This document shows positions 6,677 to 44,191 of a stretch of 64,000 nucleotides of DNA, piece after piece; the first letter of the stretch is position 1, and each line of letters opens with the position of its first letter. Made by a program: the position numbers and the translations under genes. Below the pieces are notes generated by a model. The model worked only from the letters and a program-made list of their open reading frames with translations. It was not told where the DNA came from and searched no databases. This DNA comes from Candidatus Pacearchaeota archaeon (GTDB taxonomy: Archaea > Nanobdellota > Nanobdellia > Pacearchaeales > UBA284). The stretch covers positions 3,587-67,586 of the forward strand of contig JAWANM010000001.1 of assembly GCA_038895375.1 (NCBI GenBank). The letters run 5' to 3'.

Positions 6677-6685
6677 TTTGAAGAA

Positions 6686-7408
6686 TTACTTTACATACTT
6701 GCTAAGCTGTTCCGGAGACAATTTTTTTGTTTTTTGATCTGATTTGGTAACATAATAAACGTCAAATCTTAGAAGATTGAAAGCCTTGCCGAGAATTTTT
6801 TTGAAAATGTTCAATGCCAATTTTATTCCTTGTTCTATTGTCATGCTTTCCTTATAAGACTCTCTCAGCATTTCAATGATTTTATCATCATTCTCGCCTA
6901 TGGCCGTAGCTTTATAACAAAAATAATTTCCTGTAACTTCACTAACGAAAAGTTTGACTGTTTCGTCTGTATTGACCCCGGCAATCATTATCTTTGTTCC
7001 GAAAGGCCTAACTCCGCTATATTGAGTATAAGCTTGTTTTATGTTTGCTATTTCCTTCATAACGCTTTCGACATCTATAGGCTCTTCGTAAGTTATTTTA
7101 TGCTGTTGTGCAAGAACTTGTGCTCTTTCTATAAGAATTCGAGCATCGCTCAAAACGCCTGCTGCACTAGCAATAATATGATCATCAACTTGATAAATTT
7201 TCATCGAAAATCCGGAATCCATCAGAGGATCGACAATTCTTTTATCTGTAACTATTAGCACGCCATCGCTGCAAACCATACCGATGCTTGCACTTCCTAG
7301 TCTTACTGTTTTTTCAGCATACTCTACCTGCAGCAATCTGCCTTCTGGCGAAAAAAGAGTGGCTGCTCTATCATAACCCATAACTTGATGTTGCATCTCA
7401 AAAGCCAT
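6686..7408 (-). CDS. psmA: Proteasome subunit alpha
   Basis: GYDRAATLFSPEGRLLQVEYA alpha-subunit N-terminus. 240 aa. Confidence 0.9.
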   Translation of the reverse strand: MAFEMQHQVMGYDRAATLFSPEGRLLQVEYAEKTVRLGSASIGMVCSDGVLIVTDKRIVDPLMDSGFSMKIYQVDDHIIASAAGVLSDARILIERAQVLAQQHKITYEEPIDVESVMKEIANIKQAYTQYSGVRPFGTKIMIAGVNTDETVKLFVSEVTGNYFCYKATAIGENDDKIIEMLRESYKESMTIEQGIKLALNIFKKILGKAFNLLRFDVYYVTKSDQKTKKLSPEQLSKYVK

Positions 7409-10920: not shown

Positions 10921-13158
10921 ATGAAATTACTTAAAAAGATAGCACCTATTGCTGTCGGAGCAGTTTTAGGACTAGCAACTATGGGTAGCGCGATAGCAGC
11001 AGATCTAGGAACATGGAAAAACAACTTCCCAGCAGCAAACACGGTTGTTGTTGCTTACGATAGTGATGCTGCAGCCATCGCAGAAATTGCAAACTACCTA
11101 GGCCTAAGAGGCGGGACAACAATAACCGGTGAAAGCTGGGGATTTGAAAAATCAACAAACAAACTCAACTTAGGAGAAAACTTAAGTGAGATAAGACCTA
11201 CAATTTCAAAAGAACAACTGCCAACAATTCTTGCAGAAGGTACTTACTGGGACGAAGAAAATAATGAGCACAAGTATACGCAAAAAATAACAGTAGGCGA
11301 TCTCACATTAACGCACTTCCAGGATTATGACTACAAGGACAACGAACCTACACTCGGCTTTAAAATAACAGATACCAGCTCTATCTTGAATTACACCCTT
11401 ACATTCAGCGGAAGCGGACCTGAAATAGGAGACATGAATGGAACATCAATAGAAATGCTTGGTAGAGAGTTTTTCATCAGCAAAGCTGAGGCTGGAAAAA
11501 TAACACTATTAGAAACATCAACAAGAGCTACAATAGAAGAAGAGGAAACAGCTACTGTTGGAGGAAAAACAATAAAAATTAATTATTTCGTTGAAGATGG
11601 GAAGAAAGTATCTTTAATTGTTAATGGAGAGGAGACCAACCCTATAGAAGCAGGAAAAACATACAAGCTTCGTGACGGAACTGTTGTCGGAGTAAAAACA
11701 ATAATATTTGACAGAAGAGAAGGCCGTAAGAGTAAAGTTGTAGTAACAGTGGGAACAGGAAAAATAGAGCTTATCAATGATACAGAAGTAAAAATTAATG
11801 ATAAGACAGTATATGGTTTAAAATCATACATTGATGTACCCAGTAGCAATTTGAAATCGATAACTCTTGAATGGATAGCAGACGATGATTATTACATCGG
11901 GGCTGGTGACGAGCTTGTAATGCCTGGACTTAAGGCATTAAAGCTCATGATGACAGAAATGGTGTTCCCAGCAGGAGAAGACATAACAATAAAAGGAGAT
12001 GGAAGAAAAGCCAAGCTTGAGGTTCCGATAAAAGACGGAACAGCAAATATTGTTCTTTTAGAAGGTGATGGTACAAACTGGACAACAATCGGAGAAGAAG
12101 GTAGGGTATTAAAGACGACTCTTGGAAATGCGCTTATCGACCTAACTACAAGAGATAGGTTCTTCACAACATACATAAACGGTGAAGAAGGAGAATCTTA
12201 TTATTGGGAAGTGGAAAGCTTCGACACAGACAACAACAAAGTAACATTTAAAACATTAGTAGGAAGTAAAAGCTGCACTGTCGCAGAAGGTGATGATTGT
12301 GAAGTTGGCGAAGTTTCCTTCACAGTCACGGGCCTAAATGCAACTGCTAAAAAGGTGAACATAACCGCAGGTGAGTACGTCAATTTCCACACAATAGTGT
12401 CCAGCAAAGGAGCTCTTTTCTACCTTCCACAAACGGAAAATGGGAGTATATGGGGTTATCTAAATTCCTCAAACCCTACGGGATGGGTCTTAGGAATGTA
12501 CGAAGAGGACAAAGAAGGATACATTGGCTTCGGAAACTGGACAGCGTTTTTATTCGGATTTAATGACGATGGAAAAGCGACTGTTGCTGATGTAGATAGC
12601 GAGAAATGGGCTGGTGAAGGGATGCTAAAGAAAGGTGAAGACACTGAGATTGGTTATGTAGAATCGCCACTAGCGACAAAAGTTGTTTATGAAACTGGTG
12701 GAAGGCAAGATTATGCAATTGTAACATACTATGGCGAAGAGGTTTATGGAAATGTGTTCATTGCAGGAGCTGGTGCAGCAGCGGGTGGTGGAGAAGTTGC
12801 AATAACATACCCTGAGTTGACAGAAAGCATGAAAGCAACAAAGAACATCATAAGCATTGGTGGTTCTGGAGTCAACCCATTCAGCGCAGAGCTATTGTTC
12901 GGCTCACCTACGCTTGTTTATGGAAGCGACTCAAGATGGGTGAGCGCTACAGGCGTTGATGGTGTTGGCAAGGCGCTTGTTCAGCTATATCAAGGTACAT
13001 CAGCATGCCAGAAAGTTTGCTTGCTTGTAGCAGGATTCGAAGCAAGCGACACATTGAAAGCTGCAAGATTCTTAACAACAAAGGCTGATGAGTTGGCAGG
13101 AAAAACAAAAGCTGTGCTCGACACAACAGGAGACACTGCAAGCGTAATAACAACCTAA
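10921..13158 (+). CDS. S-layer / major cell-surface protein (secreted, 745 aa)
   Basis: Signal peptide MKLLKKIAPIAVGAVLGLATMGSAIAADLG. GGAGG SD at 10909-10913. GC content and codon usage differ from neighbours (highly expressed look). T/S/G-rich beta-type composition. T-rich terminator 13180-13230. All antisense ORFs inside are spurious. Confidence 0.6.
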   Translation: MKLLKKIAPIAVGAVLGLATMGSAIAADLGTWKNNFPAANTVVVAYDSDAAAIAEIANYLGLRGGTTITGESWGFEKSTNKLNLGENLSEIRPTISKEQLPTILAEGTYWDEENNEHKYTQKITVGDLTLTHFQDYDYKDNEPTLGFKITDTSSILNYTLTFSGSGPEIGDMNGTSIEMLGREFFISKAEAGKITLLETSTRATIEEEETATVGGKTIKINYFVEDGKKVSLIVNGEETNPIEAGKTYKLRDGTVVGVKTIIFDRREGRKSKVVVTVGTGKIELINDTEVKINDKTVYGLKSYIDVPSSNLKSITLEWIADDDYYIGAGDELVMPGLKALKLMMTEMVFPAGEDITIKGDGRKAKLEVPIKDGTANIVLLEGDGTNWTTIGEEGRVLKTTLGNALIDLTTRDRFFTTYINGEEGESYYWEVESFDTDNNKVTFKTLVGSKSCTVAEGDDCEVGEVSFTVTGLNATAKKVNITAGEYVNFHTIVSSKGALFYLPQTENGSIWGYLNSSNPTGWVLGMYEEDKEGYIGFGNWTAFLFGFNDDGKATVADVDSEKWAGEGMLKKGEDTEIGYVESPLATKVVYETGGRQDYAIVTYYGEEVYGNVFIAGAGAAAGGGEVAITYPELTESMKATKNIISIGGSGVNPFSAELLFGSPTLVYGSDSRWVSATGVDGVGKALVQLYQGTSACQKVCLLVAGFEASDTLKAARFLTTKADELAGKTKAVLDTTGDTASVITT

Positions 13159-17224: not shown

Positions 17225-20200
17225 TTATTTTCTTTTCTTTTTGAAAACTGCAAAGAAAATGGTAATAATTAAAGCCATCGCAACCAAAATTAAAACAATA
17301 TAAAGAGTTGGGAAAGAAACTTTTCTAGCTTCTTCTTGCTTTTCTTCTGCTTTGCCTTGAATTTTTTCTTCTCTAACTAGTGGCTCCGGCAGCTCCGGCA
17401 GTGTTATGTTTGTTATGTTTGTTTGATTTGTTGGGCCAATGTTTATAGTGCTAGCTCCGCCACCAGCGCCACCACCAGCACCGCCGCCAGCGCCGCCACC
17501 GCTGCTAGGAGAGTAATACATAGGAGCAAAGATGCTTGAATTAGCTATACTAACGTTTCCAGAATAAACATAATTGTGTTCTGTGTCGACTCCGCTGCTT
17601 GCAAGCTCGCTCCAAGAGCCATTATAAGCAAACATTTTCAAACTAGTTTCATCACTGATTTCTCTTTCATTATAGCTCATATTAAGATAGATCCACGAGC
17701 CTACTGATGCTGCAATTACATTGACAAATTTACCAATGTTTCTATAATTTCTCGGGTCTGGTGCTGGTGCTATTGTCTTGTTCAAAGCAATATTTTCTGA
17801 TATAAAGTTTATTGTTTCTTCCAAGCCGATATCAAAATAAGAGACTATATTGTTTGTTGAGTTTAGTGAAACAAATGCAAAAAATTGATTATTTTTCGAC
17901 TCGTCATCAATTAAAATGTTGTTATTGCTAGAAGAGTTAATAAATAAACCAATCTGATTATTGTTTGTTTCAGTTGAAATAATATAATTATCGCGACTAA
18001 ATCCTAAAAGAATACCAAATTCATTTGAATTGGCCTTTGTATTAAAAATACTGTTTTTTGAAGAAGAAAGAACTCCAATGCCTACATAATTATCATTAAA
18101 AGAAGAATTTGTTATGTTGTTGTGGTTAGAATTAAAAAGAGCCAAACCAAAATAATTACCGGAAGAATTGATTAGATCAAAAGTTGTATTTTCAGTTGCT
18201 AAAACAAGCAAGCCATTATTATCAAGACTCTCAGATCCAGCAATGGTTATGTTCTTAAGTGAAGAATTATCGGCATTGCATAAAATTAATTCTGAGAGAG
18301 TTTCATTTTCTAAGGTTACGCTAGAATTATAGAATTTTATTTCTCTGTCGCCAGAACCCGTGTTATTTTCTATAATATTATTACAATAAGTGTCAATATT
18401 AGCATAACCAATCAAATCGAACAAATTATTTTCTCTTATTATATTATCGATGATAACATTATTTTGACCATCTTCAAGATAAAGGCCATAATCATTATAT
18501 TCAAAAATGCTATCATTAATATTGTTGCCATTAGAATCTTCTAAATAAATTCCATAATAATTTCCAGAAGAATTAATCAAAGAAAAATTAGAATCATTTG
18601 TATAATAGACAAATATGCCATTGTTTTGCAAGTAATCTGAGCCGATAACAGTTACATTATAAATTGAAGAGCTATCGGCATCACACAAAATAAGTTCAGA
18701 AAAAATTTCGTCGCTTAAGTTAACACTTTCATTATAGAAGGCAATAGCTCTATCGCCAGAACCAGTAACATTTTCAATAAAGATACGATCACAACTAGAA
18801 TCTGATAAGCTATTAAACCCTACATCTTGCTGTAAGTTATCTTGAACATTGCAATTGCTTATGTTTATACTTAGCTCGCCGCTGACAGGAAGATCATAAA
18901 TATAAATGCCTGTACTAAAATTAGAAATTGTCAAATTAAAGATAGTTATATTTCCACCTTGAGCAGTGTTTATTCCGTAACCTGTGCTATTGCCAGTGAT
19001 GCTATAGCCGGCGCCATTAATTGTTATGTTATTTGAACCAATTGTGAAGCAAGTTCCATTGCTCTGTAAGTTTCCATTTAAAGTGCATGATTCATAAATT
19101 CTATCGCCACATGTATAAATCATGCCGCTTTCTGCAACACAGCCATAAGGAATTGTTAAAGTTCTATTGTTTGAAGCAAAAACACAATTTCCAGCAGCAT
19201 CACAAGCTTGACAATTCCAAACATAGGTTCCTGAATCAAGAATTTTTTCAAAAATTACTGGTATTGCATTTTCTGGCGAGCTATTGGTTTCGTTAGCGTG
19301 CCAGCCACCAGACCAATTGCCATAAAGAGTTACATTTGTTAAATTTACATTATCAGAAGCAGTACAATTAAATATAATATTTCTTGAGTTTGAAGTAAAG
19401 TTATCTTGTGGTTCGTTTAAAATAACTGTAGGTTCTCCAGATATTACGATTAAAGTTCTTGTTGTTGAAATGTTGATTATTCCTATATTTTCTTCCCAAC
19501 ACTGAATTTTCCAGTTGTAAATTCCTTCTTTACTAAGATTGTATGTTATTGTAGTAAATGTATTATTTTCTGCAATAGTTGTATTAACAATGGTGTTGTT
19601 TATTATTAAATCGCATGTCGCATTTGTTGCATTTTTATTTATCGTTGTAAAATTAAAAGTTATTAAAGAATTGTTTGTTATATAACCATTCTCTGGCGAG
19701 TTTAACAAGATGCTCGGCTTAAAGTTCGGCGCATTAACCACATGAGGATACTCGACTTCTACACCAACGCCGCTACAATTAAACCTTATATAAATATAAC
19801 CATTATCGCCCCATCCTGCTCCCCAGCTGTTTTTGACAATCCAATAACTAGTATTTATGTTTCCTGTATCATTATAACCCACAAGCAAGACGCCATGATT
19901 TAAATCAGACCAATTTTGTGGTATATTGCATGTACTATCATTGAACAAACCACCAGAATAGTTGAACCACGCACTGGTAGCTTTAACACCTATAATAATT
20001 GGACCATTATCTATCAATAATTGTTTGAGTTCTTCATTTGATAAAGGGACGGTAACATTTGGATAATTACTTATGTTGACGTTTGTTGTAAAATTAGTTA
20101 TGTTCCACAATCTGGTCGCATAATCTGAACATCTGTCTGAGCATATAGCGTTAGAACAGTTTCCTCCAGTATGGTAAACACATGATGTAGAGCAATTAGA

Positions 20201-21061
20201 ATTGGAGCAATTGCAATTCGTACCATCAACGTAATTAAAACAATTTTCGTCACTTATACCATCCCTCATAATAAAATCAAGGGCAACATCCATCCAACCA
20301 CCACAACAATTCTCATACGATCCATAATAAGGATCTGTGTGGCAGTTAGAAACAAGGTACTCTTCTGCAAGGTCAGGATTTAATCTTGAATTGTTCTGAT
20401 TAATCTCATACTTGGCCTCGAGAGAGGCTATAGTAGAAAAAGCCCAGCAAGAACCGCAAGAACCTTGATTCTTAACAGAAGTAAGCCATCCATGAATTTC
20501 GTCAAAAAATGTAAAATTATATTTGCTATAGTTTGTTCCATTCGGAGGATTGCGCCAGTCCCAATAAGGAAAATCAGAAGCATTATAAGTTTTAACTGGA
20601 ATTTCTTTGATTAATAATTTTGTATCCTCTCTAGATTCTTCAAAAAAATTCTCTTTAAAACTTTCTCTTGCTCTATTCTCTGCATAAATACATTTAGAAG
20701 ATTTTGTCAAGTCTAATAGCTCATTAACGGGAATTTCTTTCATAATTTTTTTACCTGTTTCGTTAGATGGAACAATACAAAAAGCCATGCCATTTTTGCT
20801 TTTAAGCTCATAGCCATGCTTAGAACAGTAAGAAAATTCCTTGCCGCATTCGCCTCTCAAAAAAGACCATTCTTCGCATCTTTCTTTATTTGGCATCACA
20901 CAAATGCCTTTCTGGCCTAAAGCAGTTTCTACAATTTTATATTCATAACCCAATTCGCTACAATAAACTGCCGCAGGGTTTGGTAATGCAGAAACATAAC
21001 TTGTAAGAAAAATTAAAGCGAATATCACAAAGATAATCAAAAAAAATCTTGAGATTCTCAT
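17225..21061 (-). CDS. Giant membrane-anchored surface protein: signal peptide, DUF333-like modules, papain-family (C1) cysteine peptidase domain, Ig-like/beta-helix repeats, (GGGA)n linker, C-terminal TM
   Basis: NPAAVYCSELGY..GICVMPNKERCEEWSFLRGECG (DUF333). QGSCGSCWAFS (C1 catalytic Cys), LNHGVLLVGY (His), IVKNSWG (Asn). Right-handed beta-helix-like repeats (NITIFNLTISNFSTGIYIYD...). GGGAGGGAGGGAGGGAS. C-terminus LYIVLILVAMALIITIFFAVFKKKRK. Confidence 0.75.
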   Translation of the reverse strand: MRISRFFLIIFVIFALIFLTSYVSALPNPAAVYCSELGYEYKIVETALGQKGICVMPNKERCEEWSFLRGECGKEFSYCSKHGYELKSKNGMAFCIVPSNETGKKIMKEIPVNELLDLTKSSKCIYAENRARESFKENFFEESREDTKLLIKEIPVKTYNASDFPYWDWRNPPNGTNYSKYNFTFFDEIHGWLTSVKNQGSCGSCWAFSTIASLEAKYEINQNNSRLNPDLAEEYLVSNCHTDPYYGSYENCCGGWMDVALDFIMRDGISDENCFNYVDGTNCNCSNSNCSTSCVYHTGGNCSNAICSDRCSDYATRLWNITNFTTNVNISNYPNVTVPLSNEELKQLLIDNGPIIIGVKATSAWFNYSGGLFNDSTCNIPQNWSDLNHGVLLVGYNDTGNINTSYWIVKNSWGAGWGDNGYIYIRFNCSGVGVEVEYPHVVNAPNFKPSILLNSPENGYITNNSLITFNFTTINKNATNATCDLIINNTIVNTTIAENNTFTTITYNLSKEGIYNWKIQCWEENIGIINISTTRTLIVISGEPTVILNEPQDNFTSNSRNIIFNCTASDNVNLTNVTLYGNWSGGWHANETNSSPENAIPVIFEKILDSGTYVWNCQACDAAGNCVFASNNRTLTIPYGCVAESGMIYTCGDRIYESCTLNGNLQSNGTCFTIGSNNITINGAGYSITGNSTGYGINTAQGGNITIFNLTISNFSTGIYIYDLPVSGELSINISNCNVQDNLQQDVGFNSLSDSSCDRIFIENVTGSGDRAIAFYNESVNLSDEIFSELILCDADSSSIYNVTVIGSDYLQNNGIFVYYTNDSNFSLINSSGNYYGIYLEDSNGNNINDSIFEYNDYGLYLEDGQNNVIIDNIIRENNLFDLIGYANIDTYCNNIIENNTGSGDREIKFYNSSVTLENETLSELILCNADNSSLKNITIAGSESLDNNGLLVLATENTTFDLINSSGNYFGLALFNSNHNNITNSSFNDNYVGIGVLSSSKNSIFNTKANSNEFGILLGFSRDNYIISTETNNNQIGLFINSSSNNNILIDDESKNNQFFAFVSLNSTNNIVSYFDIGLEETINFISENIALNKTIAPAPDPRNYRNIGKFVNVIAASVGSWIYLNMSYNEREISDETSLKMFAYNGSWSELASSGVDTEHNYVYSGNVSIANSSIFAPMYYSPSSGGGAGGGAGGGAGGGASTINIGPTNQTNITNITLPELPEPLVREEKIQGKAEEKQEEARKVSFPTLYIVLILVAMALIITIFFAVFKKKRK

Positions 21062-21381
21062 TTTTTAAAATCTCCTGGTTTACATTCTCCTCGATAATAA
21101 GCCCATTCTTCGCATTTCGAACCATCTGGAAAAATGCAAACGCCGTACTGGCCTTTTTCGTTTTCTCTAATTTCAAGAGTTCCATTATTTTGAATGCAAT
21201 AAACACTTGCCGGATTTGGTATTGACTGATTTGCTTTTTTTTCTTTATTTGAATTCAAGAATTTTAGCATTACCAAAACTAAAGCAAAAACTAGAACTAA
21301 AGTCGTGAAAAGCAAAATTTTTTTCATCTTGCCTCTTTTCGAAAATAGAAATTTTCTGCATTTATAAATTTTCTCGATCAA
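21058..21381 (-). CDS. Small secreted DUF333-domain protein
   Basis: Signal peptide then NPASVYCIQNNGTLEIRENEKGQYGVCIFPDGSKCEEWAYYRGEC. Stop overlaps the start of the giant gene (ATGA). Confidence 0.6.
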   Translation of the reverse strand: MIEKIYKCRKFLFSKRGKMKKILLFTTLVLVFALVLVMLKFLNSNKEKKANQSIPNPASVYCIQNNGTLEIRENEKGQYGVCIFPDGSKCEEWAYYRGECKPGDFKK

Positions 21382-25088: not shown

Positions 25089-25517
25089 TTAAGCAGATGC
25101 TGGAGACGCTGCTCTTACTAAGGCAATTATTGCTCCTATAATAGCAAGCACAGGACCAACAACAAAGCCGGCCGGTGGTATAAGCAAAGCTATTATCGAA
25201 AAAACTAGAAGCGTTAGACCTGCTGCCAAGAAATTTTTTTTCAGAGTTGCTGCAACCACAAAAAGAACGAAGCCGCAAACAATGTTTATTATTCCAAGAT
25301 CGCCAAGATTCCACCATGTAAAAGCTTCCAGTTTCCAAGAAAGTAAAGAGCCAAGAAGCCACAAAATCCCTGCAAGCAAAGTAATTATGCCTCCGGTTAT
25401 GCCTAGCAAGTGTATTGCTGTAACCGGTTGTACAACTTTTTTTTCCACTTTTAACTCTTTTTTTTCTACTTTTCTAGCTTGAGTTTTTTTGCTGACTCTT
25501 TTTGTTTTTTTTGCCAT
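25089..25517 (-). CDS. Small integral membrane protein (3-4 TM) with basic N-terminus
   Basis: Hydrophobic segments ITGGIITLLAGILWLLGSLL, IVCGFVLFVVAATL, GLTLLVFSIIALLIPPAGFVVGPVLAIIGAIIALV. Confidence 0.4.
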   Translation of the reverse strand: MAKKTKRVSKKTQARKVEKKELKVEKKVVQPVTAIHLLGITGGIITLLAGILWLLGSLLSWKLEAFTWWNLGDLGIINIVCGFVLFVVAATLKKNFLAAGLTLLVFSIIALLIPPAGFVVGPVLAIIGAIIALVRAASPASA

Positions 25518-25550
25518 GCTCTTTTAAAGCAATTGAAGTTTAAAAATGTT

Positions 25551-26219
25551 TCACTCGGCGCTTAGAATTATTTTTTCAATTTCTTGATTTGATATTGAGC
25601 ATCCTTTGAATTTCAAAGCATAAAGCATGGCTTCGATTATTTTTTGCTTCGGAGCATCAAAATTTATAATCTTTTTATTCAAAGCGATCAAGACAAGTTC
25701 GCTAGAGCGAATGATGTTTATATTTTGAAAAAAATTATAATTTTCTCTATGAGCCTCGATTTTTCTATGCAATTTTTTTTCTAATAGCCTATGCAAGTTA
25801 TTCGGTGCTTCGCATAGCATTCTAGTAGTTCTTTCGTCTATTACTATCGCTTTTTTTTCTGCTCTAAGAATTTTGTATAAAGCAATACAAGAAGCCTCGC
25901 CTTCATGAATCAGCCTGACAAACTCGTTATTGGCTTTAAAAGTTTTATTTGCTTTTTCAAGAATTTTTTGTTTTTCTTTTTCTAAAAAAGAATCATCTGG
26001 ATAAATAGTTAAAATTCCTTTATCGATTAAATTTTTGATCATCAAGGCTTCCAAAGCAAAGCGATTTGTTTCTAGAGATTTATCGATGAGCTCTTCTTTT
26101 ATTGTTTTGGTAAGATAAAAATCTCCACCAAAAATTTTTTTCAAGGGTTCTAAAGTATAGAGCAAGTCGTTCAGAGCTAAAGAAATTATTGCGCTCGAAT
26201 CAAAAATCAGTGCTTTCAT
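25551..26219 (-). CDS. PIN-domain nuclease-like protein
   Basis: MKALIFDSSAIISLA N-terminus (Asp in strand 1). Further acidic positions (VIDERT). 222 aa. 4-nt overlap with the upstream HTH gene. Confidence 0.5.
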   Translation of the reverse strand: MKALIFDSSAIISLALNDLLYTLEPLKKIFGGDFYLTKTIKEELIDKSLETNRFALEALMIKNLIDKGILTIYPDDSFLEKEKQKILEKANKTFKANNEFVRLIHEGEASCIALYKILRAEKKAIVIDERTTRMLCEAPNNLHRLLEKKLHRKIEAHRENYNFFQNINIIRSSELVLIALNKKIINFDAPKQKIIEAMLYALKFKGCSISNQEIEKIILSAE

Positions 26220-26776
26220 CTGAACAAAGATTCTGCAAGTTTAATTCTTTTTTCTATAGGCAAAGTAATCGACAAGTCTATATCTGCTATTCCAGTAAGA
26301 CCAACGTATTCTGCAAGTTCCCATTGTGTAATTCCAAGTAGTCTTGCAGTTTCCGCTCTGGAAATGCCATGTTCGTAAATTCTAGAAGCCTTGTTTATTG
26401 CAGCTTTTCTAAAAACCTCTAAAATGTAAGTTTTCAACTTTGAACTTATTTTCTCTGTTTCTTTCCTTATGTTTATCATTTGCTCTCTAAAAGCCTCAAC
26501 ATTATCTTGTTCTAGAGCTTTTATGGCTCTATCTAAAAATTTCAGACATGCTCTAATAAAGCTTCGCCATTCGGGATATTCTCTGTAGTTCTGACGTTCA
26601 AGAATTTTGCTTAAAGTATAGATTGTAACTGCAAGCATAACAGCATCGGGATCTTTATAGATAGAAGCCGAGTGAATTGTTCTGTTCGACATATTTTTCA
26701 ACAAAACAATATCTCTTTCTTTTATTGCTTTTTTTGCATTTCTTAAAACTTTTAGAACGTTCTTTTTCTCTATCAT
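26216..26776 (-). CDS. Helix-turn-helix domain protein (C-terminal HTH) co-transcribed with PIN gene
   Basis: C-terminus GISRAETARLLGITQWELAEYVGL is a classic HTH. Confidence 0.45.
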   Translation of the reverse strand: MIEKKNVLKVLRNAKKAIKERDIVLLKNMSNRTIHSASIYKDPDAVMLAVTIYTLSKILERQNYREYPEWRSFIRACLKFLDRAIKALEQDNVEAFREQMINIRKETEKISSKLKTYILEVFRKAAINKASRIYEHGISRAETARLLGITQWELAEYVGLTGIADIDLSITLPIEKRIKLAESLFR

Positions 26777-26808
26777 TAATTCATAAAAAACAATGTTTTT
26801 TTTAAATG

Positions 26809-28611
26809 TTACTTTCCTTTTTCTATTATCTCTGGTCTTAAAATTTCTTTGTATAGATCTAAAACATAATCCGGAAAGCTAACATCTTCATCTCCTATTT
26901 TTTCTCCATACAACCATTCTCCAATTACCGAATAGCCCTCAACACAAACTATTCTTTCAAAATATTCTTTATCGTTTTTTGGCTTATAATGTTCTTCCCA
27001 TGCTTTGAGCCTTTCTATGAGTTTTTCTCTAGTTCTTTTCTGCGCTTCGGTCAGTTGCTCATCTTTCATAAATTTTCTCATAGCTTGCTCCACTTCTTTT
27101 TGCTTTCCTTTTTGCCTAAAAAAATGATGTAAAATTTCATGAACAAGAATAGTATCATCCAAACCTTGTCTTGTTATTTCTATGGTTGCTGAAGAAGAAT
27201 AATAAACACCACTATAATAAGGAATTTTAGCTCTTAGATCTGTAACCCGGATCTTAGAAGGAATTTTATGTATAACTTTTTCTTCAAACACTTCTCTTTT
27301 AACAGAATCTATCTCTTTTTTTAGAAAAATGGGAGCAATATCTATTACGACCATTCCTTCAGGAGCGGAAAAAATAGTTCTACCAACTATCTTTTCATCA
27401 ACTTTTATTTCGACTATTTTTCCTTTGGCTTCAATTTTTCTCACTAGAACCTCTCCTCTTTTGTGAAGGATGTCTTTCTTCTCATGAAGCCTATATACTT
27501 CTAGGAAACTTGGAGTAATTTTGGTTGGTTTACCATCATAGAATTCTATTTCTTCCCCATTTACAACAATTTGAAGATTGGCTTTGTCGCTAACCAACAA
27601 AGTTTTCGTTATTCTATCAAAGAAAACTGCTCCATTGTTTTTTAGCTCCTGGTCTTCAAATTCTTCGAGTGTTCTCACCGAAGATAAAAAATAAAAATTC
27701 TCGCCTTTAATTTTTGTTCCATCGATTTCGAGCTCGCCATCGATAATTTTAAGGTCGTCCCCTATTGAAAAAGAAAGAAATTTTCCATTCACGCTTTTAA
27801 TGTAACTCCTTGATTCCTTTACAGCTTCTGTGAATGGAAAAAGAATCATGCATCCTTTTTCAAAATTATTTAGCCCTCCAATCGCCTCAAAAACAACTTC
27901 TTTTTTTGGAATAAACTTGAAAGAATCGAATCCTTTCGATATCTCTATAGATTCTTTTGGGAAAAAAATAAATTTACTATGATTTATTTCAAAAAAGCCG
28001 CCTTTATTTAAGCTTATTCCTAAATTGCAAAAGGGCAAAAGTGTTCTGCTATTGTTACCAAGAATAGCTTTTAATCGAATCTCGCTAAGTTCGTCAAATT
28101 CCAACGGGCTAAAAAAGATATACTCTACATCGCTTTTATTGTTAATTTGTATGCTATAGCATATGTTATCCGTAAAATAATTTGAATCAAAAAGAAAGAT
28201 TTTTTTGAAATAAATTTTCAATCCTTTGTCTACCAAAACTGTTATATTTTGGTGTTGTATATCTATCACGCAATCAAAAAAATAAATTTTTTCAGAAGGT
28301 TCTGCATAATAATACAGAATTTCGAGTGTTGGTATGATGCGATCTATTTTTATTTCTGTACTAAAAAAACTTGTCTTAATTCTGGCTTCGCTAACGTTGA
28401 TCAAAATTATTCCATCTATTCCGCCTTCGATTTTGTCTACTTTTTCAATTTTTCCTTTAACTAAAAAATAATGACCACTAGAAAATTCTACTTTTTCACC
28501 ATTGCTATAGTTGCCATCATGATAAATGTCTTGTGCGAAAGTTTCCGTAAGGCTTGCTATAGCAAAAACTATCGCAATTAACAAAATTGTTTTATTCATT
28601 TTCGACGGCAA
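26809..28611 (-). CDS. Secreted 600-aa protein with C-terminal HExxH (putative zinc metallopeptidase) domain
   Basis: Signal peptide MNKTILLIAIVFAIASLTETFA. Beta-rich body. TILVHEILHHFF motif near the C-terminus. Confidence 0.45.
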   Translation of the reverse strand: MPSKMNKTILLIAIVFAIASLTETFAQDIYHDGNYSNGEKVEFSSGHYFLVKGKIEKVDKIEGGIDGIILINVSEARIKTSFFSTEIKIDRIIPTLEILYYYAEPSEKIYFFDCVIDIQHQNITVLVDKGLKIYFKKIFLFDSNYFTDNICYSIQINNKSDVEYIFFSPLEFDELSEIRLKAILGNNSRTLLPFCNLGISLNKGGFFEINHSKFIFFPKESIEISKGFDSFKFIPKKEVVFEAIGGLNNFEKGCMILFPFTEAVKESRSYIKSVNGKFLSFSIGDDLKIIDGELEIDGTKIKGENFYFLSSVRTLEEFEDQELKNNGAVFFDRITKTLLVSDKANLQIVVNGEEIEFYDGKPTKITPSFLEVYRLHEKKDILHKRGEVLVRKIEAKGKIVEIKVDEKIVGRTIFSAPEGMVVIDIAPIFLKKEIDSVKREVFEEKVIHKIPSKIRVTDLRAKIPYYSGVYYSSSATIEITRQGLDDTILVHEILHHFFRQKGKQKEVEQAMRKFMKDEQLTEAQKRTREKLIERLKAWEEHYKPKNDKEYFERIVCVEGYSVIGEWLYGEKIGDEDVSFPDYVLDLYKEILRPEIIEKGK

Positions 28612-29308
28612 AATAAAATTCCCATATTCTATTGTCTATCATCGTTGAATTGTCAGCAATTCTATAAATTATAGTATTTTCATCAAAAATTAGCGGACTT
28701 ATAATAACGCTATAGTTTTTTTGCAAATCGAATAGAAGCTCCAAGTTGATTTTTCCAGGATCTGCCTTAACATTTTCTGCAATTGTCTTGCTTATGTTTA
28801 GCATCTTATCAAAATCTATATTTTTTCTTTCATAATAAACTTCAAACAAGGTTTGTTCCTCGCCTTTTTTCATTTTTACAGGAATTGCTACTTTTATCAA
28901 ATTGTTCAACTCTATTTTAGGATCGCTCATTTGCAGTTCGAATCTGCTAAAATTTGATTCTATTGCTAGAATCCTTCCGGTAATTTCTTTTTTTATTTCT
29001 TCTTTCACGCGATTTGAAGAAGGGACTATGACTTTTTTGTTATAATAATAATATGGAATAAAATGAAATTGCATTTGTAAGAACTTTTCAGATTTCTCGC
29101 TATAACCTCCTTGTAATCCTAGCAATAGCAACGCACCGTCGACTTCGTAAGCCAGCCTTTCTTGTAAAAAGTTTTTTGCTAAAGTAATTTCTTCGGAAAG
29201 AGTTTTGGTTTTGGAATGACTTCTATAAACGAACCACCCAATAAGACCGGCAATAACAATTGAAATTGCAATTACAATGAATAACGTAACTTGGCCTCTT
29301 TTTTTCAT
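28592..29308 (-). CDS. Membrane-anchored hypothetical protein (N-terminal TM); 20-nt overlap with downstream HExxH gene
   Basis: MKKRGQVTLFIVIAISIVIAGLIGWFVY. Confidence 0.4.
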   Translation of the reverse strand: MKKRGQVTLFIVIAISIVIAGLIGWFVYRSHSKTKTLSEEITLAKNFLQERLAYEVDGALLLLGLQGGYSEKSEKFLQMQFHFIPYYYYNKKVIVPSSNRVKEEIKKEITGRILAIESNFSRFELQMSDPKIELNNLIKVAIPVKMKKGEEQTLFEVYYERKNIDFDKMLNISKTIAENVKADPGKINLELLFDLQKNYSVIISPLIFDENTIIYRIADNSTMIDNRIWEFYFAVENE

Positions 29309-29388: not shown

Positions 29389-30111
29389 ATGACAAAGACA
29401 GAAGCGCTTTACCTTGAAGACAGTTATTTGAAAGAATGGCAAGCACAAGTTGTTGAAGTTTTTGGAGACAAACAACAGTTTGTTGTTCTAGATAAAACAG
29501 CTTTTTACCCAAAAGGCGGTGGTCAGCTTAACGACAAAGGCAAAATTATTCGTGACAACAATGAAGAATTTGAAGTGATTAATGTAGAGAATTCAAACGG
29601 CAAAATAGTTCACGAAGTAAATAAGCCAGGGCTTAAAGTAGGAGACAAAGTTTTCTGCATTTTAGATTGGCAACGTAGGTATAAAATGATGAGAATGCAT
29701 ACGGCTGCACACATTATTTCAGGTATAATCGAACAAGAATCTGGAGCACTTATTTCTGGAAATCAACTAGACTTGGATAAAAGTAGAATTGATTTTAATC
29801 TTGAAATTTTCGACAAAGAAAAATTAAAAGAATATATAGAGAAAGCAAACGAGATTGTTTCAAAAGATTTGAAAGTAAAAATTTATTTTTTGCCTTATGA
29901 TGAGGCAATTAAACAAAAAGAACTTTTCAAATTGCTAAAAGGTTTCGATAAAGTAGTAGAGCAAATCAGAATTGTTGAAATCGAAGGATTTCAAAAGCAA
30001 GCGGATGGCGGAACACATGTTGCTAAAACAAGCGAAGTCGGAAAAATAATTTTTCTCGGAGCAGAAAACAAAGGGGCGAAAAAAAGAAGAATTTATTTTA
30101 CAGTTGAATAG
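29389..30111 (+). CDS. alaX: Alanyl-tRNA editing protein AlaX (AlaX-M type)
   Basis: TAFYPKGGGQLND N-domain. HTAAHII (HxxxH). QADGGTHV (second zinc motif, with Asp where Cys is usual). Confidence 0.7.
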   Translation: MTKTEALYLEDSYLKEWQAQVVEVFGDKQQFVVLDKTAFYPKGGGQLNDKGKIIRDNNEEFEVINVENSNGKIVHEVNKPGLKVGDKVFCILDWQRRYKMMRMHTAAHIISGIIEQESGALISGNQLDLDKSRIDFNLEIFDKEKLKEYIEKANEIVSKDLKVKIYFLPYDEAIKQKELFKLLKGFDKVVEQIRIVEIEGFQKQADGGTHVAKTSEVGKIIFLGAENKGAKKRRIYFTVE

Positions 30112-32778: not shown

Positions 32779-33477
32779 ATGAAAGTTGCAATTTTATTTT
32801 CTGGAGGAAAAGATAGCGTTTATGCTATAGAGTACGCTATGCAAAGAGGCTGGAAAATCAAATATTTATTGTCTTTCAAACCTAACAGAACGGACTGCTA
32901 TTTGTTTCATTTTGCCGGCGTTGAGGCAACACCAAAAATTGCCAATGCAATCGGGCTTAAACATATATATGCTGCTTGCGATGTAGCAGATCCTGAAAAG
33001 GAAGCAGAATTGGTTCGTAAAATCGTTTCTAAAAATCGCGTTGACGCTTTAATTCTAGGCGGTGTCGGACTTCAAGAAACACAACTGCGCGCATTACAGC
33101 ATGCCTTGATGCCTTTAAGAATAGAAGTTTTTGCTTCGCATGCAGGCTATGATCATGAAGAAATCATGCAAGAGATGATAAAAAAAGGTTACGACATAAG
33201 GATTTCTCAATTTGCAGTCGAAGGCCTAGGAATGGAATGGCTAGGGAAAAAGTTGGACGAGCAAGCATTCGAAGATTTAAAAACAAGAGCACAGAAATTT
33301 GGATTTCATGTTGGCGGTGAAGGAGGTCATTACGATACTATAGTGTTGGATGGACCTATATTCAAGAAAAAACTACACATCGAAGCCGAAAAAGTTGAAG
33401 AATCCGAATACAGCGGATACATTAAAATCAAGAATGCAGAGCTTATAGAGAAAAGCGAGATAAAATGGGTCGTATAA
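32779..33477 (+). CDS. dph6: Diphthine-ammonia ligase-like PP-loop ATPase (Dph6/MJ0570 family)
   Basis: MKVAILFSGGKDSVYAIEYA PP-loop. ~230 aa MJ0570-type. Confidence 0.6.
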   Translation: MKVAILFSGGKDSVYAIEYAMQRGWKIKYLLSFKPNRTDCYLFHFAGVEATPKIANAIGLKHIYAACDVADPEKEAELVRKIVSKNRVDALILGGVGLQETQLRALQHALMPLRIEVFASHAGYDHEEIMQEMIKKGYDIRISQFAVEGLGMEWLGKKLDEQAFEDLKTRAQKFGFHVGGEGGHYDTIVLDGPIFKKKLHIEAEKVEESEYSGYIKIKNAELIEKSEIKWVV

Positions 33478-37063: not shown

Positions 37064-38542
37064 TTGTTGGCATTAAAATTAAAAATGAAAAGTCCGTATG
37101 TAATGCTTTATGGCTTCAATGTAGATGTTCTACATTTAAAGTACAGATTAAAAAAAGATTCTCTTCTTAAAAACAGTAAACAACTTAATTTGATTATCAA
37201 CAAAGTTTCTCCTGCAGTTATTGCTACAGCTTGCGCAGGCATAAGCCATCAGGAAAAAAGTTTTTCTTGGCTTAGAAAAAAATATAGAAATCTTGATAAG
37301 TTGATCGGCTTGGATAAAAAGCTTGTTGAGATGGGGCATTCCTCTATAGTCGAACACATGTTTTTTAATTTTGATGTTGTCTTGAGCAGGCTTGCTGTGG
37401 AGTTCTTGGAAAGCCATAGATTGGCAAGCTACACCGAAAAATCACAGAGATTTACCGAAGTTGATTACAATGCTTTTTATTTGCCATCTGAACATCAAGA
37501 TTTTGTTTCTCTTTTCAAAAAGCAAATTGAGCTATACAAAAAAGCTTTAGACTTGTCGAGAAAGCAACTAAAAGAAAAATTTGGAGAAAATTGGAAAAAA
37601 TACGATAATAAGGCCAAAGAAGACTCAAGATTTGTTTTGCCTCTGGCAGTTTTAGCTCCTTTAAATTTTAGCGTGAATGGACGTGAATTAGAATATATCA
37701 TTCAAAAGGCAAATTCTCACTCTTTACCAGAAATAAAAAAATTTGGTGAATTGCTAATTAAGGAATTGAATAGCAAAGTTCCTTGGGCCATGCACTTAAT
37801 CAAGCATACAGAAAAAGATGTTTATTATGAAAAAAATAAACAACTGGAAGAAGTTGTAAAGAGCTTGGCCTTGTATCAAAATTGTCAACAAAATACTTCT
37901 ATTGAAGTAGAAAAAGACGCCGACGACAAAATAATTGCTGCTCTTATTTTTGAAAATGCTCAGATCTCGTATGAAAAAGCTCTTGATTTTGTAAAAAAAC
38001 AAGATCAAAAGCTAAAATTTGAAATTGTTAGAAAAGCCTTAAAAAACATGGAAATGTATCATAGACCTCCGAGAGCTTTTGAAATTCCTTATGTAACTGT
38101 ATCTACTGCAATATCTGCTTCTTGTTTTGCCCAACTAAAAAGACATAGAATGCTTACGCTTTTGGTACAGCCCTACGATCCTAGCTTGGGATACACTATT
38201 CCGGAATCTATACATGAAATCGGTCTTGCAAAGGAGTATCTCGAATTAATGGAGCAATCCTCGGAATTGCTTTTCAAGCTTAGAAAGCAAGAGGATCCAG
38301 AAGCGGAATATGTAGTTACAAATGGCCACAAAAGAAGGGTGATTATTAAAATGAATTTTAGAGAGCTCTATCACTTTTCTAGATTAAGACAAGACAAGCA
38401 TGCTCAATGGGAAATTAGGAACCTAGCAAACGAAATTGTTGATCGAGTTAAAAAAGATATGCCTATAACGACAATTCTTCTTGGCGGCAAACACGAATTC
38501 CAAGACATCAAAAAATTGTTTGAAAAATATGAACAAATCTAA
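37064..38542 (+). CDS. thyX: Flavin-dependent thymidylate synthase ThyX-like, double-length
   Basis: N-half HSSIVEHMFFNFDVVLSRLAVEFLESHRLASYTEKSQRF is the ThyX signature (SHR..S....SQRF). C-half has a degenerate second copy (LKRHRMLTLL). 492 aa. Confidence 0.5.
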   Translation: MLALKLKMKSPYVMLYGFNVDVLHLKYRLKKDSLLKNSKQLNLIINKVSPAVIATACAGISHQEKSFSWLRKKYRNLDKLIGLDKKLVEMGHSSIVEHMFFNFDVVLSRLAVEFLESHRLASYTEKSQRFTEVDYNAFYLPSEHQDFVSLFKKQIELYKKALDLSRKQLKEKFGENWKKYDNKAKEDSRFVLPLAVLAPLNFSVNGRELEYIIQKANSHSLPEIKKFGELLIKELNSKVPWAMHLIKHTEKDVYYEKNKQLEEVVKSLALYQNCQQNTSIEVEKDADDKIIAALIFENAQISYEKALDFVKKQDQKLKFEIVRKALKNMEMYHRPPRAFEIPYVTVSTAISASCFAQLKRHRMLTLLVQPYDPSLGYTIPESIHEIGLAKEYLELMEQSSELLFKLRKQEDPEAEYVVTNGHKRRVIIKMNFRELYHFSRLRQDKHAQWEIRNLANEIVDRVKKDMPITTILLGGKHEFQDIKKLFEKYEQI

Positions 38543-42640: not shown

Positions 42641-43279
42641 TCAAATTAGATTGTAATCTAAAAGTTGATTTTCAAGATTCAAGCCAGGACATGCTGTATT
42701 GAGCCATGCCAAATCTGGCCAGTTTTCGAGTTGCTCTGGAACAAAATTGTCCATCAAAAACAAGTAAACTTTTCCGCCTTTTTTTTCCAATCTTTTTTTA
42801 ATTTCTAAGGCTTCTCTCAGCTTGAGCTGGCCCGGCTTAATTGAAACAAGTATCCCTTTTTTGTCTGAAGAGAGAAACTTAACGTAAGCTGCTTTTTGTC
42901 TTGCTTTAATCTTGTTTATTTCCTCTTGATCAAGCTTATAAAATTGCGAGCTATTTGGATTAAAAACAAAAATCGGTTTTTTAAGAGAAAGAGCAAGCAG
43001 CATAGGATGAAAATTTCCTGAACCTATGTAAAGAAAACAAGAAACTTTATCCTGAAGCTTTAAAGCAGCTTCAAGCTTGCAGCCAAGAATTATACCTTCT
43101 CTATACACAAAAACTTTCTTGCCTTTTTCTTTGAATATAAAATAAAATTTTTTAAGCAAATACGAGAATTGTATTGTAGTAATCAAGCCAACTTTTTTAG
43201 GAAGCTTTTTAGCTATTTCTTCAATTGTTTCTTTAGAAATAAAAATTTTTTGCCGTGCTGGAATATAGAGAATTTTCAT
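42641..43279 (-). CDS. dph2: Dph2-like (diphthamide synthesis radical-SAM-like) protein, short two-domain form
   Basis: FLYIGSGNFHP, GILVSIKPGQLKLREALEIKKRLEKKGGKVYLFLMDN and ACPGLNL resemble the C-terminal two domains of archaeal Dph2. No room for an N-terminal domain because the SepF stop abuts the start. Confidence 0.4.
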   Translation of the reverse strand: MKILYIPARQKIFISKETIEEIAKKLPKKVGLITTIQFSYLLKKFYFIFKEKGKKVFVYREGIILGCKLEAALKLQDKVSCFLYIGSGNFHPMLLALSLKKPIFVFNPNSSQFYKLDQEEINKIKARQKAAYVKFLSSDKKGILVSIKPGQLKLREALEIKKRLEKKGGKVYLFLMDNFVPEQLENWPDLAWLNTACPGLNLENQLLDYNLI

Positions 43280-43669
43280 TTATTCTTTCTTTTCGCCTGC
43301 TGGCTTTGCTGTAGTTTCGCTTTCTCCTTTGTAGATTTCGACAAAAGAAGGAGTTGCTACAATAATATTCTCTCCAAATCCTGCAATATTTCCTTCCAAA
43401 GCATCTACAGTTTTCTTGAGTTTTGCTATTGCTCTCTTCAATTCAACAACATCTTTGCTTTTCAATGGTTTGATGTCTATAATAGCTATGCTATAGCCTT
43501 CTCTCAATACTTCAAGAATTTTATTGGTATCCTCAAAAGTTTTAAGAATGAAAGGCCTTATAAGAATTTTAGCTTTCTTTGTCTCTTTACCTGTTTCTAT
43601 TTCAAGATAATCTGCCTCACTCGGCTCTTCTTTAGCTCCAAAGATTTTTTTGAAAATAGACATTTTCAA
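43280..43669 (-). CDS. sepF: Cell division protein SepF (DUF552)
   Basis: YSIAIIDIKPLKSKDVVELKRAIAKLKKTVDALEGNIAGFGENIIVATPSFVEI. Confidence 0.7.
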   Translation of the reverse strand: MKMSIFKKIFGAKEEPSEADYLEIETGKETKKAKILIRPFILKTFEDTNKILEVLREGYSIAIIDIKPLKSKDVVELKRAIAKLKKTVDALEGNIAGFGENIIVATPSFVEIYKGESETTAKPAGEKKE

Positions 43670-44053: not shown

Positions 44054-44191
44054 TTATATGGCTTTAACTTTCTTGATGGCTTTTCTTGGCTTGAAAAATA
44101 TCTTGCTACCGCAATAAGGGCAAGAAAATCTCGTCTTCAAAACTTTATCAGATACCTCTTTACCGCATGAAAAGCATTTATAAACTGGCAT
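44054..44191 (-). CDS. rpoP: DNA-directed RNA polymerase subunit P (RpoP/Rpc10), 45 aa
   Basis: Manual translation MPVYKCFSCGKEVSDKVLKTRFSCPYCGSKIFFKPRKAIKKVKAI (CxxC...CxxC). Immediately upstream of pfdB and downstream of rpl37ae, as in the conserved archaeal cluster. Confidence 0.7.
   Translation of the reverse strand: MPVYKCFSCGKEVSDKVLKTRFSCPYCGSKIFFKPRKAIKKVKAI

What the first reader, a model, noticed from the sequence alone, without database searches (positions are those of the whole stretch)
42641..43279. Short Dph2-like protein lacking the N-terminal domain, wedged between SepF and a lipid-headgroup cluster; Dph6-like gene elsewhere in window
The 212-aa product aligns by eye to domains 2 and 3 of archaeal Dph2 (FLYIGSGNFHP; GILVSIKPGQLKLREALEIKKRLEKKGGKVYLFLMDN; ACPGL). 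There is physically no room for domain 1, since the SepF stop codon abuts its start. Archaeal Dph2 normally has three domains, each supplying one [4Fe-4S] Cys ligand. The gene may be split, with domain 1 encoded elsewhere, or this may be a functionally diverged paralog.
Basis: partly seen in the sequence, partly recalled or inferred. Interest (0 to 1): 0.5.

Follow-up and report, generated by a model that had tools for sequence, protein, structure and literature searches.

The report
C-terminal half of split Dph2
This gene encodes only the C-terminal two-thirds of the diphthamide-synthesis enzyme Dph2, because in this group of tiny archaea (Pacearchaeota, DPANN) the enzyme is made from two separate genes, a split already described in the literature, so the finding is real but ordinary for the lineage.

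Summary
ORF 42641-43279(-) encodes a 212-aa protein that matches Pfam PF01866 (E=1.4e-35), but only profile positions 64-274 of 302. It aligns to solved archaeal Dph2 structures from about residue 92 onward.

It keeps two of the three [4Fe-4S] cysteines (C67, C197) and lacks the domain-1 cysteine. Its ATG directly follows the SepF stop codon.

It is not a fragment. More than 100 diverged 200-235-aa homologues start at the same point, and SepF-short Dph2 synteny holds down to 49% identity.

The missing part exists as a separate gene family of about 83-100 aa, with GACD and GH motifs 100% conserved in 120 sequences. In the closed Pacearchaeota genome CP061211.1 the two halves lie at least 291 kb apart. 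About one in eight of the N-half loci retrieved have the C-half immediately downstream.

No N-half lies in this 64-kb window, and I could not locate this organism's own copy.

The split is published: Podar 2013, Narrowe 2018, and Dombrowski 2019, which names Pacearchaeota.

Two details may be new:
- The fission point appears to leave the last strand of domain 1 on the C-half.
- This subclade has Gly where the SAM-pocket Arg (CmnDph2 R285) normally sits.

Verdict: already known, low interest.

The parts
42641..43279 (-). Gene for the C-terminal half (CTD) of split Dph2, covering domains 2 and 3 plus the presumed last strand of domain 1; 212 aa
   Evidence: PF01866 E=1.4e-35 over profile 64-274/302. 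Aligns to PDB Dph2 residues ~92-299. AF2 model has pLDDT 96.3, and its only significant PDB matches (E<=1e-9) are Dph2 structures, TM 0.72-0.82 normalised to the query.
43256..43276 (-). Residues 2-8 (KILYIPA), inferred to be the fourth beta-strand of domain 1, donated in trans to the N-half
   Evidence: These residues align to full-length HMM positions 91-97 (PVLFVEV), right after the GHS motif where most stand-alone N-halves end at positions 82-86. Residues 1-15 are coil in the isolated CTD model, and the isolated NTD model has only three strands. This is an inference; no complex model or structure was examined.
43079..43081 (-). Cys67, the [4Fe-4S] ligand equivalent to PhDph2 Cys163
   Evidence: Alignment with 3lzc and 6bxm; conserved in 150 of 151 short-CTD sequences; codon position checked.
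43007..43009 (-). His91 of the GSGNFHP motif, equivalent to SAM-pocket His-180 of CmnDph2
   Evidence: Alignment; conserved in 150 of 151; residue role taken from PMC10669111.
42827..42829 (-). Gln151, equivalent to SAM-pocket Gln-237 of CmnDph2
   Evidence: Alignment; conserved in 151 of 151.
42689..42691 (-). Cys197, the [4Fe-4S] ligand equivalent to PhDph2 Cys287
   Evidence: Alignment; conserved in 151 of 151.
42683..42685 (-). Gly199, at the position of the SAM-pocket Arg (CmnDph2 Arg-285, yeast Dph1 Arg-370)
   Evidence: Alignment. Among 151 short CTDs, 46 have Gly and 91 have Arg; all 22 full-length homologues in which the motif was found have Arg. R370A abolishes diphthamide synthesis in yeast (PMC10669111).
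43280..43669 (-). SepF gene directly upstream, with its stop codon abutting the Dph2-CTD start; probably the same transcript
   Evidence: PF04472 E=1.2e-10. The TAA-ATG junction is seen. The adjacency is conserved in homologues of 98%, 58% and 49% identity.
32779..33477 (+). Dph6-like diphthine-ammonia ligase gene, the last step of the same pathway
   Evidence: PF01902 E=1.5e-41, full length. Also present in the near-identical contigs.

Best explanation
The ORF is the C-terminal subunit of a two-gene (split) Dph2, the non-canonical radical-SAM enzyme 2-(3-amino-3-carboxypropyl)histidine synthase, which performs the first step of diphthamide synthesis on EF-2. The 212-aa product carries domains 2 and 3, two of the three [4Fe-4S] cysteines (C67, C197) and most SAM-pocket residues (G66, H91, Q151). 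A separately encoded protein of about 85-95 aa, lying outside this window, supplies the rest of domain 1 and the third cysteine in its GACD motif. The two polypeptides are inferred to assemble non-covalently around the cluster. The N-terminal strand of the C-half (KILYIPA) probably completes the three-stranded sheet of the N-half. The pair would then dimerise like ordinary archaeal Dph2, giving an (N.C)2 enzyme. What is shown: homology, truncation point, conservation, family size, synteny, and the existence and separate location of N-half genes in relatives. What is inferred: physical assembly, strand complementation and activity.
For: Identity as the Dph2 C-terminal part:
- Sequence and fold matches.

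Not a fragment or pseudogene:
- The 39 hits of the word-indexed search are mostly 200-235 aa and come from Pacearchaeota and Nanoarchaeia MAGs.
- In the exhaustive search, most of the best 150 cluster representatives are 200-235 aa and align from their residue 1 to query residue 1.
- Seven columns are invariant across 100 sequences: M1, Q37, C67, H91, K148, Q151 and C197.

Synteny:
- The order L11-L37ae-45-aa Zn-ribbon-prefoldin beta-SepF-short Dph2 is conserved at 98%, 58% and 49% identity.

The partner exists:
- Stand-alone N-halves of 83-100 aa fill the top 120 hits of two searches, including Pacearchaeota entries.
- G-A-C-D and G-H are 100% conserved in 120 of them.
- The AF2 model of one (P0286) matches only domain 1 of solved Dph2 structures.

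Both halves in one closed genome:
- CP061211.1 (710,724 bp) has its C-half at 431770-432420 and a 94-aa N-half ORF at 12259-12540.

Arrangements of the two halves:
- Ten of about 80 N-half loci have the C-half directly downstream as a separate ORF.
- One of these shows ...GGAGATGTGGTAAATG..., with an SD-like GGAG just upstream.

Pathway context:
- Dph6 lies in the window.

Literature:
- Split Dph2 in nanoarchaeon Nst1 (PMC3655853).
- Split Dph1/2 in DPANN (PMC6143161).
- Explicitly in Pacearchaeota (PMC6349945).
Against: - The N-half of this organism was not seen. Neither N-domain HMM finds one in the 64-kb window. The two closest N-half candidates I looked up belong to other assemblies.
- The Arg that is essential in yeast Dph1 (R370, equal to CmnDph2 R285) is Gly here, and no compensating basic residue is evident within the C-half.
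- The C-terminal tail present in full-length enzymes is missing.
- EF-2 and Dph5 are not in the window, so integrity of the pathway is untested.
- No experiment or complex model shows that the halves associate.
Confidence: 0.85

Rival explanations
1. The two-domain protein works on its own as a minimal Dph2. It would hold the [4Fe-4S] cluster with two cysteines plus another ligand and would not need any N-half.
For: The C-half holds the identified SAM-pocket positions and two cysteine ligands. It folds confidently in isolation in silico (pLDDT 96.3). No N-half lies within 64 kb.
Against: N-half genes with a 100%-conserved cluster cysteine persist in the same lineages, and in the closed relative genome that shares this gene's synteny. 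Such conservation of an ORF of about 90 aa is hard to explain if it were dispensable. Residues 1-15 of the C-half are conserved (M1 invariant) yet unstructured alone, as expected for a segment that needs a partner.
Confidence: 0.05
2. This is a functionally diverged Dph2-like protein. It could be a non-catalytic scaffold or electron-relay subunit like eukaryotic Dph2, or a radical-SAM enzyme with another substrate, rather than the catalytic ACP-transferase.
For: Gly199 replaces the SAM-pocket Arg that is essential in yeast Dph1. Asp-289 is Glu203 and Asp-290 is Asn204. The C-terminal tail is lost. Eukaryotic Dph2 likewise lacks the SAM pocket (PMC10669111).
Against: G66, H91, Q151, K148 and both cysteines are about 99-100% conserved. 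Nothing else in the alignment separates the Gly-type from the Arg-type proteins, so they look like one orthologous family. The searches returned no second, catalytic-type Dph2 attributable to these Pacearchaeota genomes. Dph6 is retained nearby, which implies the pathway still needs a first-step enzyme.
Confidence: 0.07
3. This is an artefact or decaying gene: a pseudogene fragment, a mis-called start, or an assembly break that removed the 5' part.
For: Nothing specific, beyond truncated domains often being artefacts in MAG-like sequence.
Against: The upstream gene is an intact SepF whose stop abuts the ATG. The same architecture occurs in independent assemblies and samples. More than 100 diverged representatives begin at the same residue. 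The sequence shows strong purifying selection on catalytic residues.
Confidence: 0.01

Closest known systems
Archaeal Dph2 homodimer (P. horikoshii 3LZD, Ca. Methanoperedens nitroreducens 6BXN, M. smithii 6Q2D): 2-(3-amino-3-carboxypropyl)histidine synthase
   Same: About 30-34% identity over domains 2-3. Same fold (TM 0.72-0.82 normalised to the query). Cysteines equivalent to Cys163 and Cys287 are present, along with SAM-pocket Gly, His and Gln.
   Different: It lacks the first ~90 residues, including Cys59. It lacks roughly the last 9-38 residues. The SAM-pocket Arg-285 is Gly, and Asp-289/290 are Glu/Asn. It does not reach the TIGR03682 equivalog cut-off.
Split Dph1/2 genes of DPANN archaea (Narrowe et al. 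2018, PMC6143161; listed for Parv-, Pace-, Woese- and Altiarchaeota in Dombrowski et al. 2019, PMC6349945; Nst1 nanoarchaeon in Podar et al. 2013, PMC3655853)
   Same: It has the described architecture: a separate gene for the C-terminal part in a Pacearchaeota-type genome, with N-terminal-part genes present in relatives.
   Different: Nothing essential differs. The papers give no detail on the cut point, the distance between halves or active-site changes. Those details are additions, not contradictions.
Eukaryotic Dph1-Dph2 heterodimer
   Same: It is also a two-polypeptide form of the same enzyme. One eukaryotic subunit (Dph2) likewise lacks the SAM-pocket residues.
   Different: The eukaryotic subunits are two full-length three-domain paralogues. 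Here, one protomer is cut into an N-piece and a C-piece.
Other split protein genes of Nanoarchaeota/DPANN (reverse gyrase, AlaRS, RNA polymerase B and others)
   Same: Fission of an informational or translation-related gene into separately encoded, sometimes distant, halves in reduced genomes.
   Different: Different protein families. For Dph2, the metal cluster would be ligated across the two polypeptides.

Membership tests
Dph2 / Pfam PF01866 Diphthamide_syn | Significant match to the family profile above the curated threshold | tested here: met
   123.7 bits against a 33.2 cut-off, E=1.4e-35. TIGR00322 domain model scores 117.3 against 35.
Dph2 / Pfam PF01866 Diphthamide_syn | Full-length equivalog (TIGR03682 arCOG04112) score, meaning all three domains in one chain | tested here: not met
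   129.1 bits against a 202.8 cut-off. Only profile positions 72-278 of 308 are matched. Domain 1 is absent.
Dph2 / Pfam PF01866 Diphthamide_syn | Three conserved Cys ligands of the [4Fe-4S] cluster, one per domain (PhDph2 Cys59, Cys163, Cys287) | tested here: inconclusive
   C67 and C197 are present and about 99-100% conserved. The third Cys is not in this ORF. It is 100% conserved in the stand-alone N-half family of relatives, but this genome's copy was not seen.
Dph2 / Pfam PF01866 Diphthamide_syn | SAM-pocket residues (CmnDph2 G158, H180, Q237, V265, R285, D289, D290) | tested here: inconclusive
   G66, H91, Q151 and a hydrophobic F179 are present. R285 is G199, D289 is E203 and D290 is N204.
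Dph2 / Pfam PF01866 Diphthamide_syn | Dph2 fold of domains 2-3 | tested here: met
   The AF2 model has pLDDT 96.3. Foldseek finds only Dph2 entries at E<=1e-9, TMq 0.66-0.82.
Dph2 / Pfam PF01866 Diphthamide_syn | ACP transfer from SAM to the His of EF-2 | not testable with these tools
   This needs biochemistry. EF-2 and Dph5 are not in the window.
DPANN split Dph1/2, C-terminal gene | Stand-alone ORF starting at the shared fission point, conserved as such across the lineage | tested here: met
   Most of the best 150 representatives are 200-235 aa and align residue 1 to residue 1. 89 of 151 CTDs start at HMM position 91.
DPANN split Dph1/2, C-terminal gene | DPANN (Pacearchaeota) origin | tested here: met
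   98% identical to a protein of Candidatus Pacearchaeota MAGs GCA_038819655.1 and GCA_038830805.1, with the same gene order over 20 kb.
DPANN split Dph1/2, C-terminal gene | Separate N-terminal-domain gene in the same genome and no full-length copy | tested here: inconclusive
   No N-half lies in the window. One is present in the closed relative CP061211.1, at least 291 kb from its C-half. The rest of this genome is not available.

The most novel reading that the evidence does not exclude
In the Pacearchaeota 'ACPG' subclade, the split enzyme has re-engineered its active site. The SAM-carboxylate-binding Arg (CmnDph2 R285, yeast Dph1 R370, essential there) is lost. Its role would then be taken over in trans, for example by a Lys in the basic C-terminal extension (GHSxWP[FY]..K..K) that Pacearchaeota N-halves carry. 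Alternatively SAM is bound in a different geometry. The fission point inside domain 1 would make the two halves assemble by beta-strand complementation around a shared [4Fe-4S] cluster.
Probability: 0.15. Interest if true: 0.45.

Novelty: already known. Interest (0 to 1): 0.2.

Why it matters
Mostly as a correct annotation. A 212-aa 'diphthamide synthesis protein' in Pacearchaeota-type genomes is one half of a two-gene enzyme, not a fragment or a sign of an incomplete assembly. As Narrowe et al. point out, this matters for marker-gene-based completeness estimates. The split enzyme would be a natural case of a radical-SAM [4Fe-4S] cluster ligated by two different polypeptides. The Arg-to-Gly change in the SAM pocket of this subclade could inform how Dph2 enforces its unusual ACP-radical chemistry. 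These are modest refinements of a known phenomenon.

Tried and rejected
- I guessed that the 745-aa ORF at 10921-13158 was EF-2, so that I could check the diphthamide His. It is a signal-peptide-bearing surface-type protein instead.
- I searched all six frames of the window and of the first six loci with an N-domain HMM built from full-length proteins, then the window and all loci held at the time with one built from 120 stand-alone N-halves. There was no significant hit in the window.
- An exact look-up of the window protein in the contig index found it not on record. The 98% variant P0001 was used instead.
- I tried to find this organism's own N-half through the two closest Pacearchaeota-like N-halves, P0336 and P0355. 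Both come from other assemblies. The single genome-contig scan did not return the JAWAXV or JAWBLD assemblies among its best 80 loci.
- I looked for Dph5 among 36 window proteins scanned with Pfam and found none. The scan was not exhaustive.
- I looked for a compensating basic residue that separates Gly-type from Arg-type C-halves and found none.
- I considered protein splicing by a split intein, or RNA-level joining. I rejected these as unsupported. The N-half is only about 85-95 aa, which leaves no room for an intein half. In the one adjacent pair whose junction DNA was read (L083), the stop codon is followed directly by ATG, with an SD-like GGAG just upstream.
- I considered SepF as a surrogate domain 1 and rejected it. 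It is a bona fide SepF match with no N-domain HMM signal.
- Supplementary tables of Narrowe et al. are not held, and the original PhDph2 paper could not be read.

Full report
**1. The observation**

The ORF listing gives a 212-aa ATG-initiated ORF at 42641-43279 on the minus strand.
- It matches Pfam PF01866 (Diphthamide_syn) at 123.7 bits (E=1.4e-35), but only over profile positions 64-274 of 302.
- NCBIfam's Dph1/Dph2 domain model TIGR00322 is passed. The full-length archaeal Dph2 equivalog TIGR03682 is not (129 against 203 bits).
- phmmer against PDB sequences aligns residues 3-204 to residues ~92-299 of the M. smithii, Ca. Methanoperedens and P. horikoshii Dph2 structures (E about 1e-22).
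- The upstream ORF (43280-43669) is a genuine SepF (PF04472). Its TAA is directly followed, in frame, by this gene's ATG, so no N-terminal extension is possible.
- Downstream are two CDP-alcohol phosphatidyltransferases and a cytidylyltransferase.
- A Dph6-type diphthine-ammonia ligase lies at 32779-33477 (PF01902, E=1.5e-41).

In addition, full-length homologues run 9-38 residues past this protein's C-terminus.

**2. Not a fragment**

The word-indexed search returns 39 homologues. Most are 200-235 aa, and the named ones come from Candidatus Pacearchaeota and Nanoarchaeia MAGs.

The exhaustive HMMER search of 1.8 billion cluster representatives finds 1028 relatives. Most of the best 150 are 200-235 aa and align their residue 1 with query residue 1.

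A 98%-identical protein sits on Pacearchaeota contigs (GCA_038819655.1, GCA_038830805.1) with the same gene order over 20 kb. The order L11-L37ae-45-aa Zn-ribbon-prefoldin beta-SepF-short Dph2 is kept in homologues of 58% and 49% identity.

Across 151 short forms, conservation is:
- Cys67 (equivalent to PhDph2 Cys163): 99%.
- Cys197 (equivalent to Cys287): 100%.
- His91, Lys148 and Gln151: 99-100%.

The AF2 model is very confident (pLDDT 96.3). Its only significant PDB matches are Dph2 structures, covering about 55% of the target (TMq 0.72-0.82, TMt about 0.5).

**3. Where domain 1 is**

An HMM of the N-terminal region of full-length homologues, and a second HMM built from stand-alone N-halves, find nothing in the window in any frame.

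A profile of that N-terminal region does retrieve a very large family of stand-alone proteins of 83-100 aa carrying PF01866. They come from Altiarchaeota, Aenigmatarchaeota, Nanoarchaeota, Woesearchaeota and Pacearchaeota. In 120 of them the G-A-C-D motif, whose Cys equals PhDph2 Cys59, and a G-H motif are 100% conserved. The AF2 model of one (P0286) matches only domain 1 of solved Dph2 structures.

The scan of GTDB species genomes returned 80 such loci. One lies in the closed 710,724-bp Pacearchaeota genome CP061211.1:
- a 94-aa ORF bounded by stop codons at about 12259-12540;
- the C-half of the same genome, the 49% homologue with the same SepF synteny, at 431770-432420;
- the halves are therefore at least 291 kb apart on the circle.

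Of the roughly 80 N-half loci, 10 have a C-half ORF immediately downstream. The rest have none within 6 kb. In L083 the junction reads ...AAGGAGATGTGGTAAATG..., a stop followed directly by a start, with an SD-like GGAG just upstream. So both adjacent and dispersed arrangements exist.

In Pacearchaeota the N-half has its own conserved neighbourhood: RNA-polymerase operon-L30e-NusA-methyltransferase-MGMT, then the N-half, then RNase P p30-DUF357-YjbQ-Tmk. A more distant Arg-type C-half sits between CTP synthase and RpoL, with no N-half nearby.

I could not locate the N-half of the window's own organism.

**4. How it most likely works**

Established knowledge, cited through PMC11048331 and PMC10669111:
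- Archaeal Dph2 is a homodimer.
- Each protomer binds one [4Fe-4S] cluster through Cys59, Cys163 and Cys287.
- SAM is held by Gly158, His180, Gln237, Val265, Arg285 and Asp289/290 (CmnDph2 numbering).

Here the last two cysteines and Gly, His and Gln lie on the C-half, and the first cysteine lies on the separately encoded N-half. The best explanation is a reconstituted two-polypeptide protomer that dimerises as usual.

The cut is probably not at the domain boundary:
- Most N-halves end at full-length-HMM positions 82-86, just after GHS.
- C-halves start at position 91 with the hydrophobic stretch aligned to PVLFVEV.
- The isolated N-half model has three strands and a disordered tail.
- Residues 1-15 of the isolated C-half are coil although conserved.
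- Domains 2 and 3 each place a strand after their Cys/His motif.

I infer that KILYIPA is the fourth strand of domain 1, supplied in trans. This is an inference, because no complex was modelled.

**5. An unexplained divergence**

The Arg of the ACPR motif (CmnDph2 R285, yeast Dph1 R370, where R370A abolishes diphthamide) is Gly199 here.
- Among 151 short C-halves, 46 have Gly and 91 have Arg.
- All 22 full-length homologues in which the motif was found have Arg.
- Nothing else in the C-half distinguishes the two groups, and no compensating basic position was found.

Pacearchaeota N-halves carry a basic C-terminal extension that most others lack. The link to Gly-type C-halves rests on a single verified genome pair, CP061211.1.

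**6. Comparison with what is known**

The split is published in three places:
- Podar et al. 2013 list DPH2 as split into two non-adjacent genes in nanoarchaeon Nst1.
- Narrowe et al. 2018 state that several DPANN genomes encode the NTD and CTD of Dph1/2 separately, and warn against using it as a completeness marker.
- Dombrowski et al. 2019 list Parv-, Pace-, Woese- and Altiarchaeota.

The window gene is a typical member of that class. The cut-point detail, the mix of adjacent and dispersed arrangements and the Arg-to-Gly subclade are small additions.

**7. Verdict**

The phenomenon is already known, so interest is low (0.2). The residual novel reading, an altered SAM pocket with in-trans compensation, has a probability of about 0.15.

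Noticed in passing
window 748-1983 (+): A full-length serpin (411 aa, PF00079 E=1e-120) in a small DPANN-type archaeal genome, next to enolase (1988-3211, minus strand).
   Followed up: partly
window 17225-21061 (-) and 21058-21381 (-): A 1278-aa protein combining DUF333, a papain-family C1 peptidase and NosD/beta-helix repeats. It is preceded by a small DUF333 protein. Together with the serpin elsewhere in the window, this may form a protease/inhibitor pair of a surface-attached lifestyle.
   Followed up: partly
window 37064-38542 (+): A 492-aa ThyX with two Thy1 (PF02511) stretches, about twice the usual ThyX length. It looks like a tandem-fused flavin-dependent thymidylate synthase.
   Followed up: no
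window 25089-29308 (-): Five consecutive minus-strand ORFs (142, 222, 186, 600 and 238 aa) with no Pfam match at E<=0.001.
   Followed up: no
window 10921-13158 (+): A 745-aa protein with an N-terminal signal-like segment, rich in Thr, Gly and Val. It is probably an S-layer or surface protein. It was not scanned against Pfam.
   Followed up: no
window 44054-44191 (-): A conserved 45-aa CxxC...CxxC zinc-ribbon ORF between L37ae and prefoldin beta, present in most of the related loci examined. From my own knowledge of archaeal gene order it is probably RNA polymerase subunit P (RpoP/Rpb12). This was not tested.
   Followed up: no
window 29389-30111 (+): A 240-aa stand-alone protein matching only the C-terminal end of the alanyl-tRNA synthetase core (profile positions 473-552 of 552) plus the tRNA_SAD domain. 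It is either an AlaX-type editing protein or a piece of a split AlaRS.
   Followed up: no
L020, L022, L029, L042, L052, L070, L071, L076, L077, L083: A distinct subfamily in which the Dph2 N-half (tail GHN..F.K...W) is followed directly by an Arg-type C-half (head ...IDAKW.GEI.L). In two of these loci (L022, L077) about 600 nt separate the halves.
   Followed up: partly
L007/L008 4893-8429; L091 2710-6249; L092 2797-6327: In these Pacearchaeota loci the RNA polymerase largest subunit is a single ORF of about 1178 aa carrying Rpb1 domains 1-5, while subunit B is split into two genes (492-550 aa and 599 aa).
   Followed up: no
window 3569-7408 (-): The classical archaeal exosome/proteasome superoperon is intact: Rrp42- and Rrp41-like RNase PH pair, Rrp4, SBDS and proteasome alpha. 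This is ordinary.
   Followed up: partly
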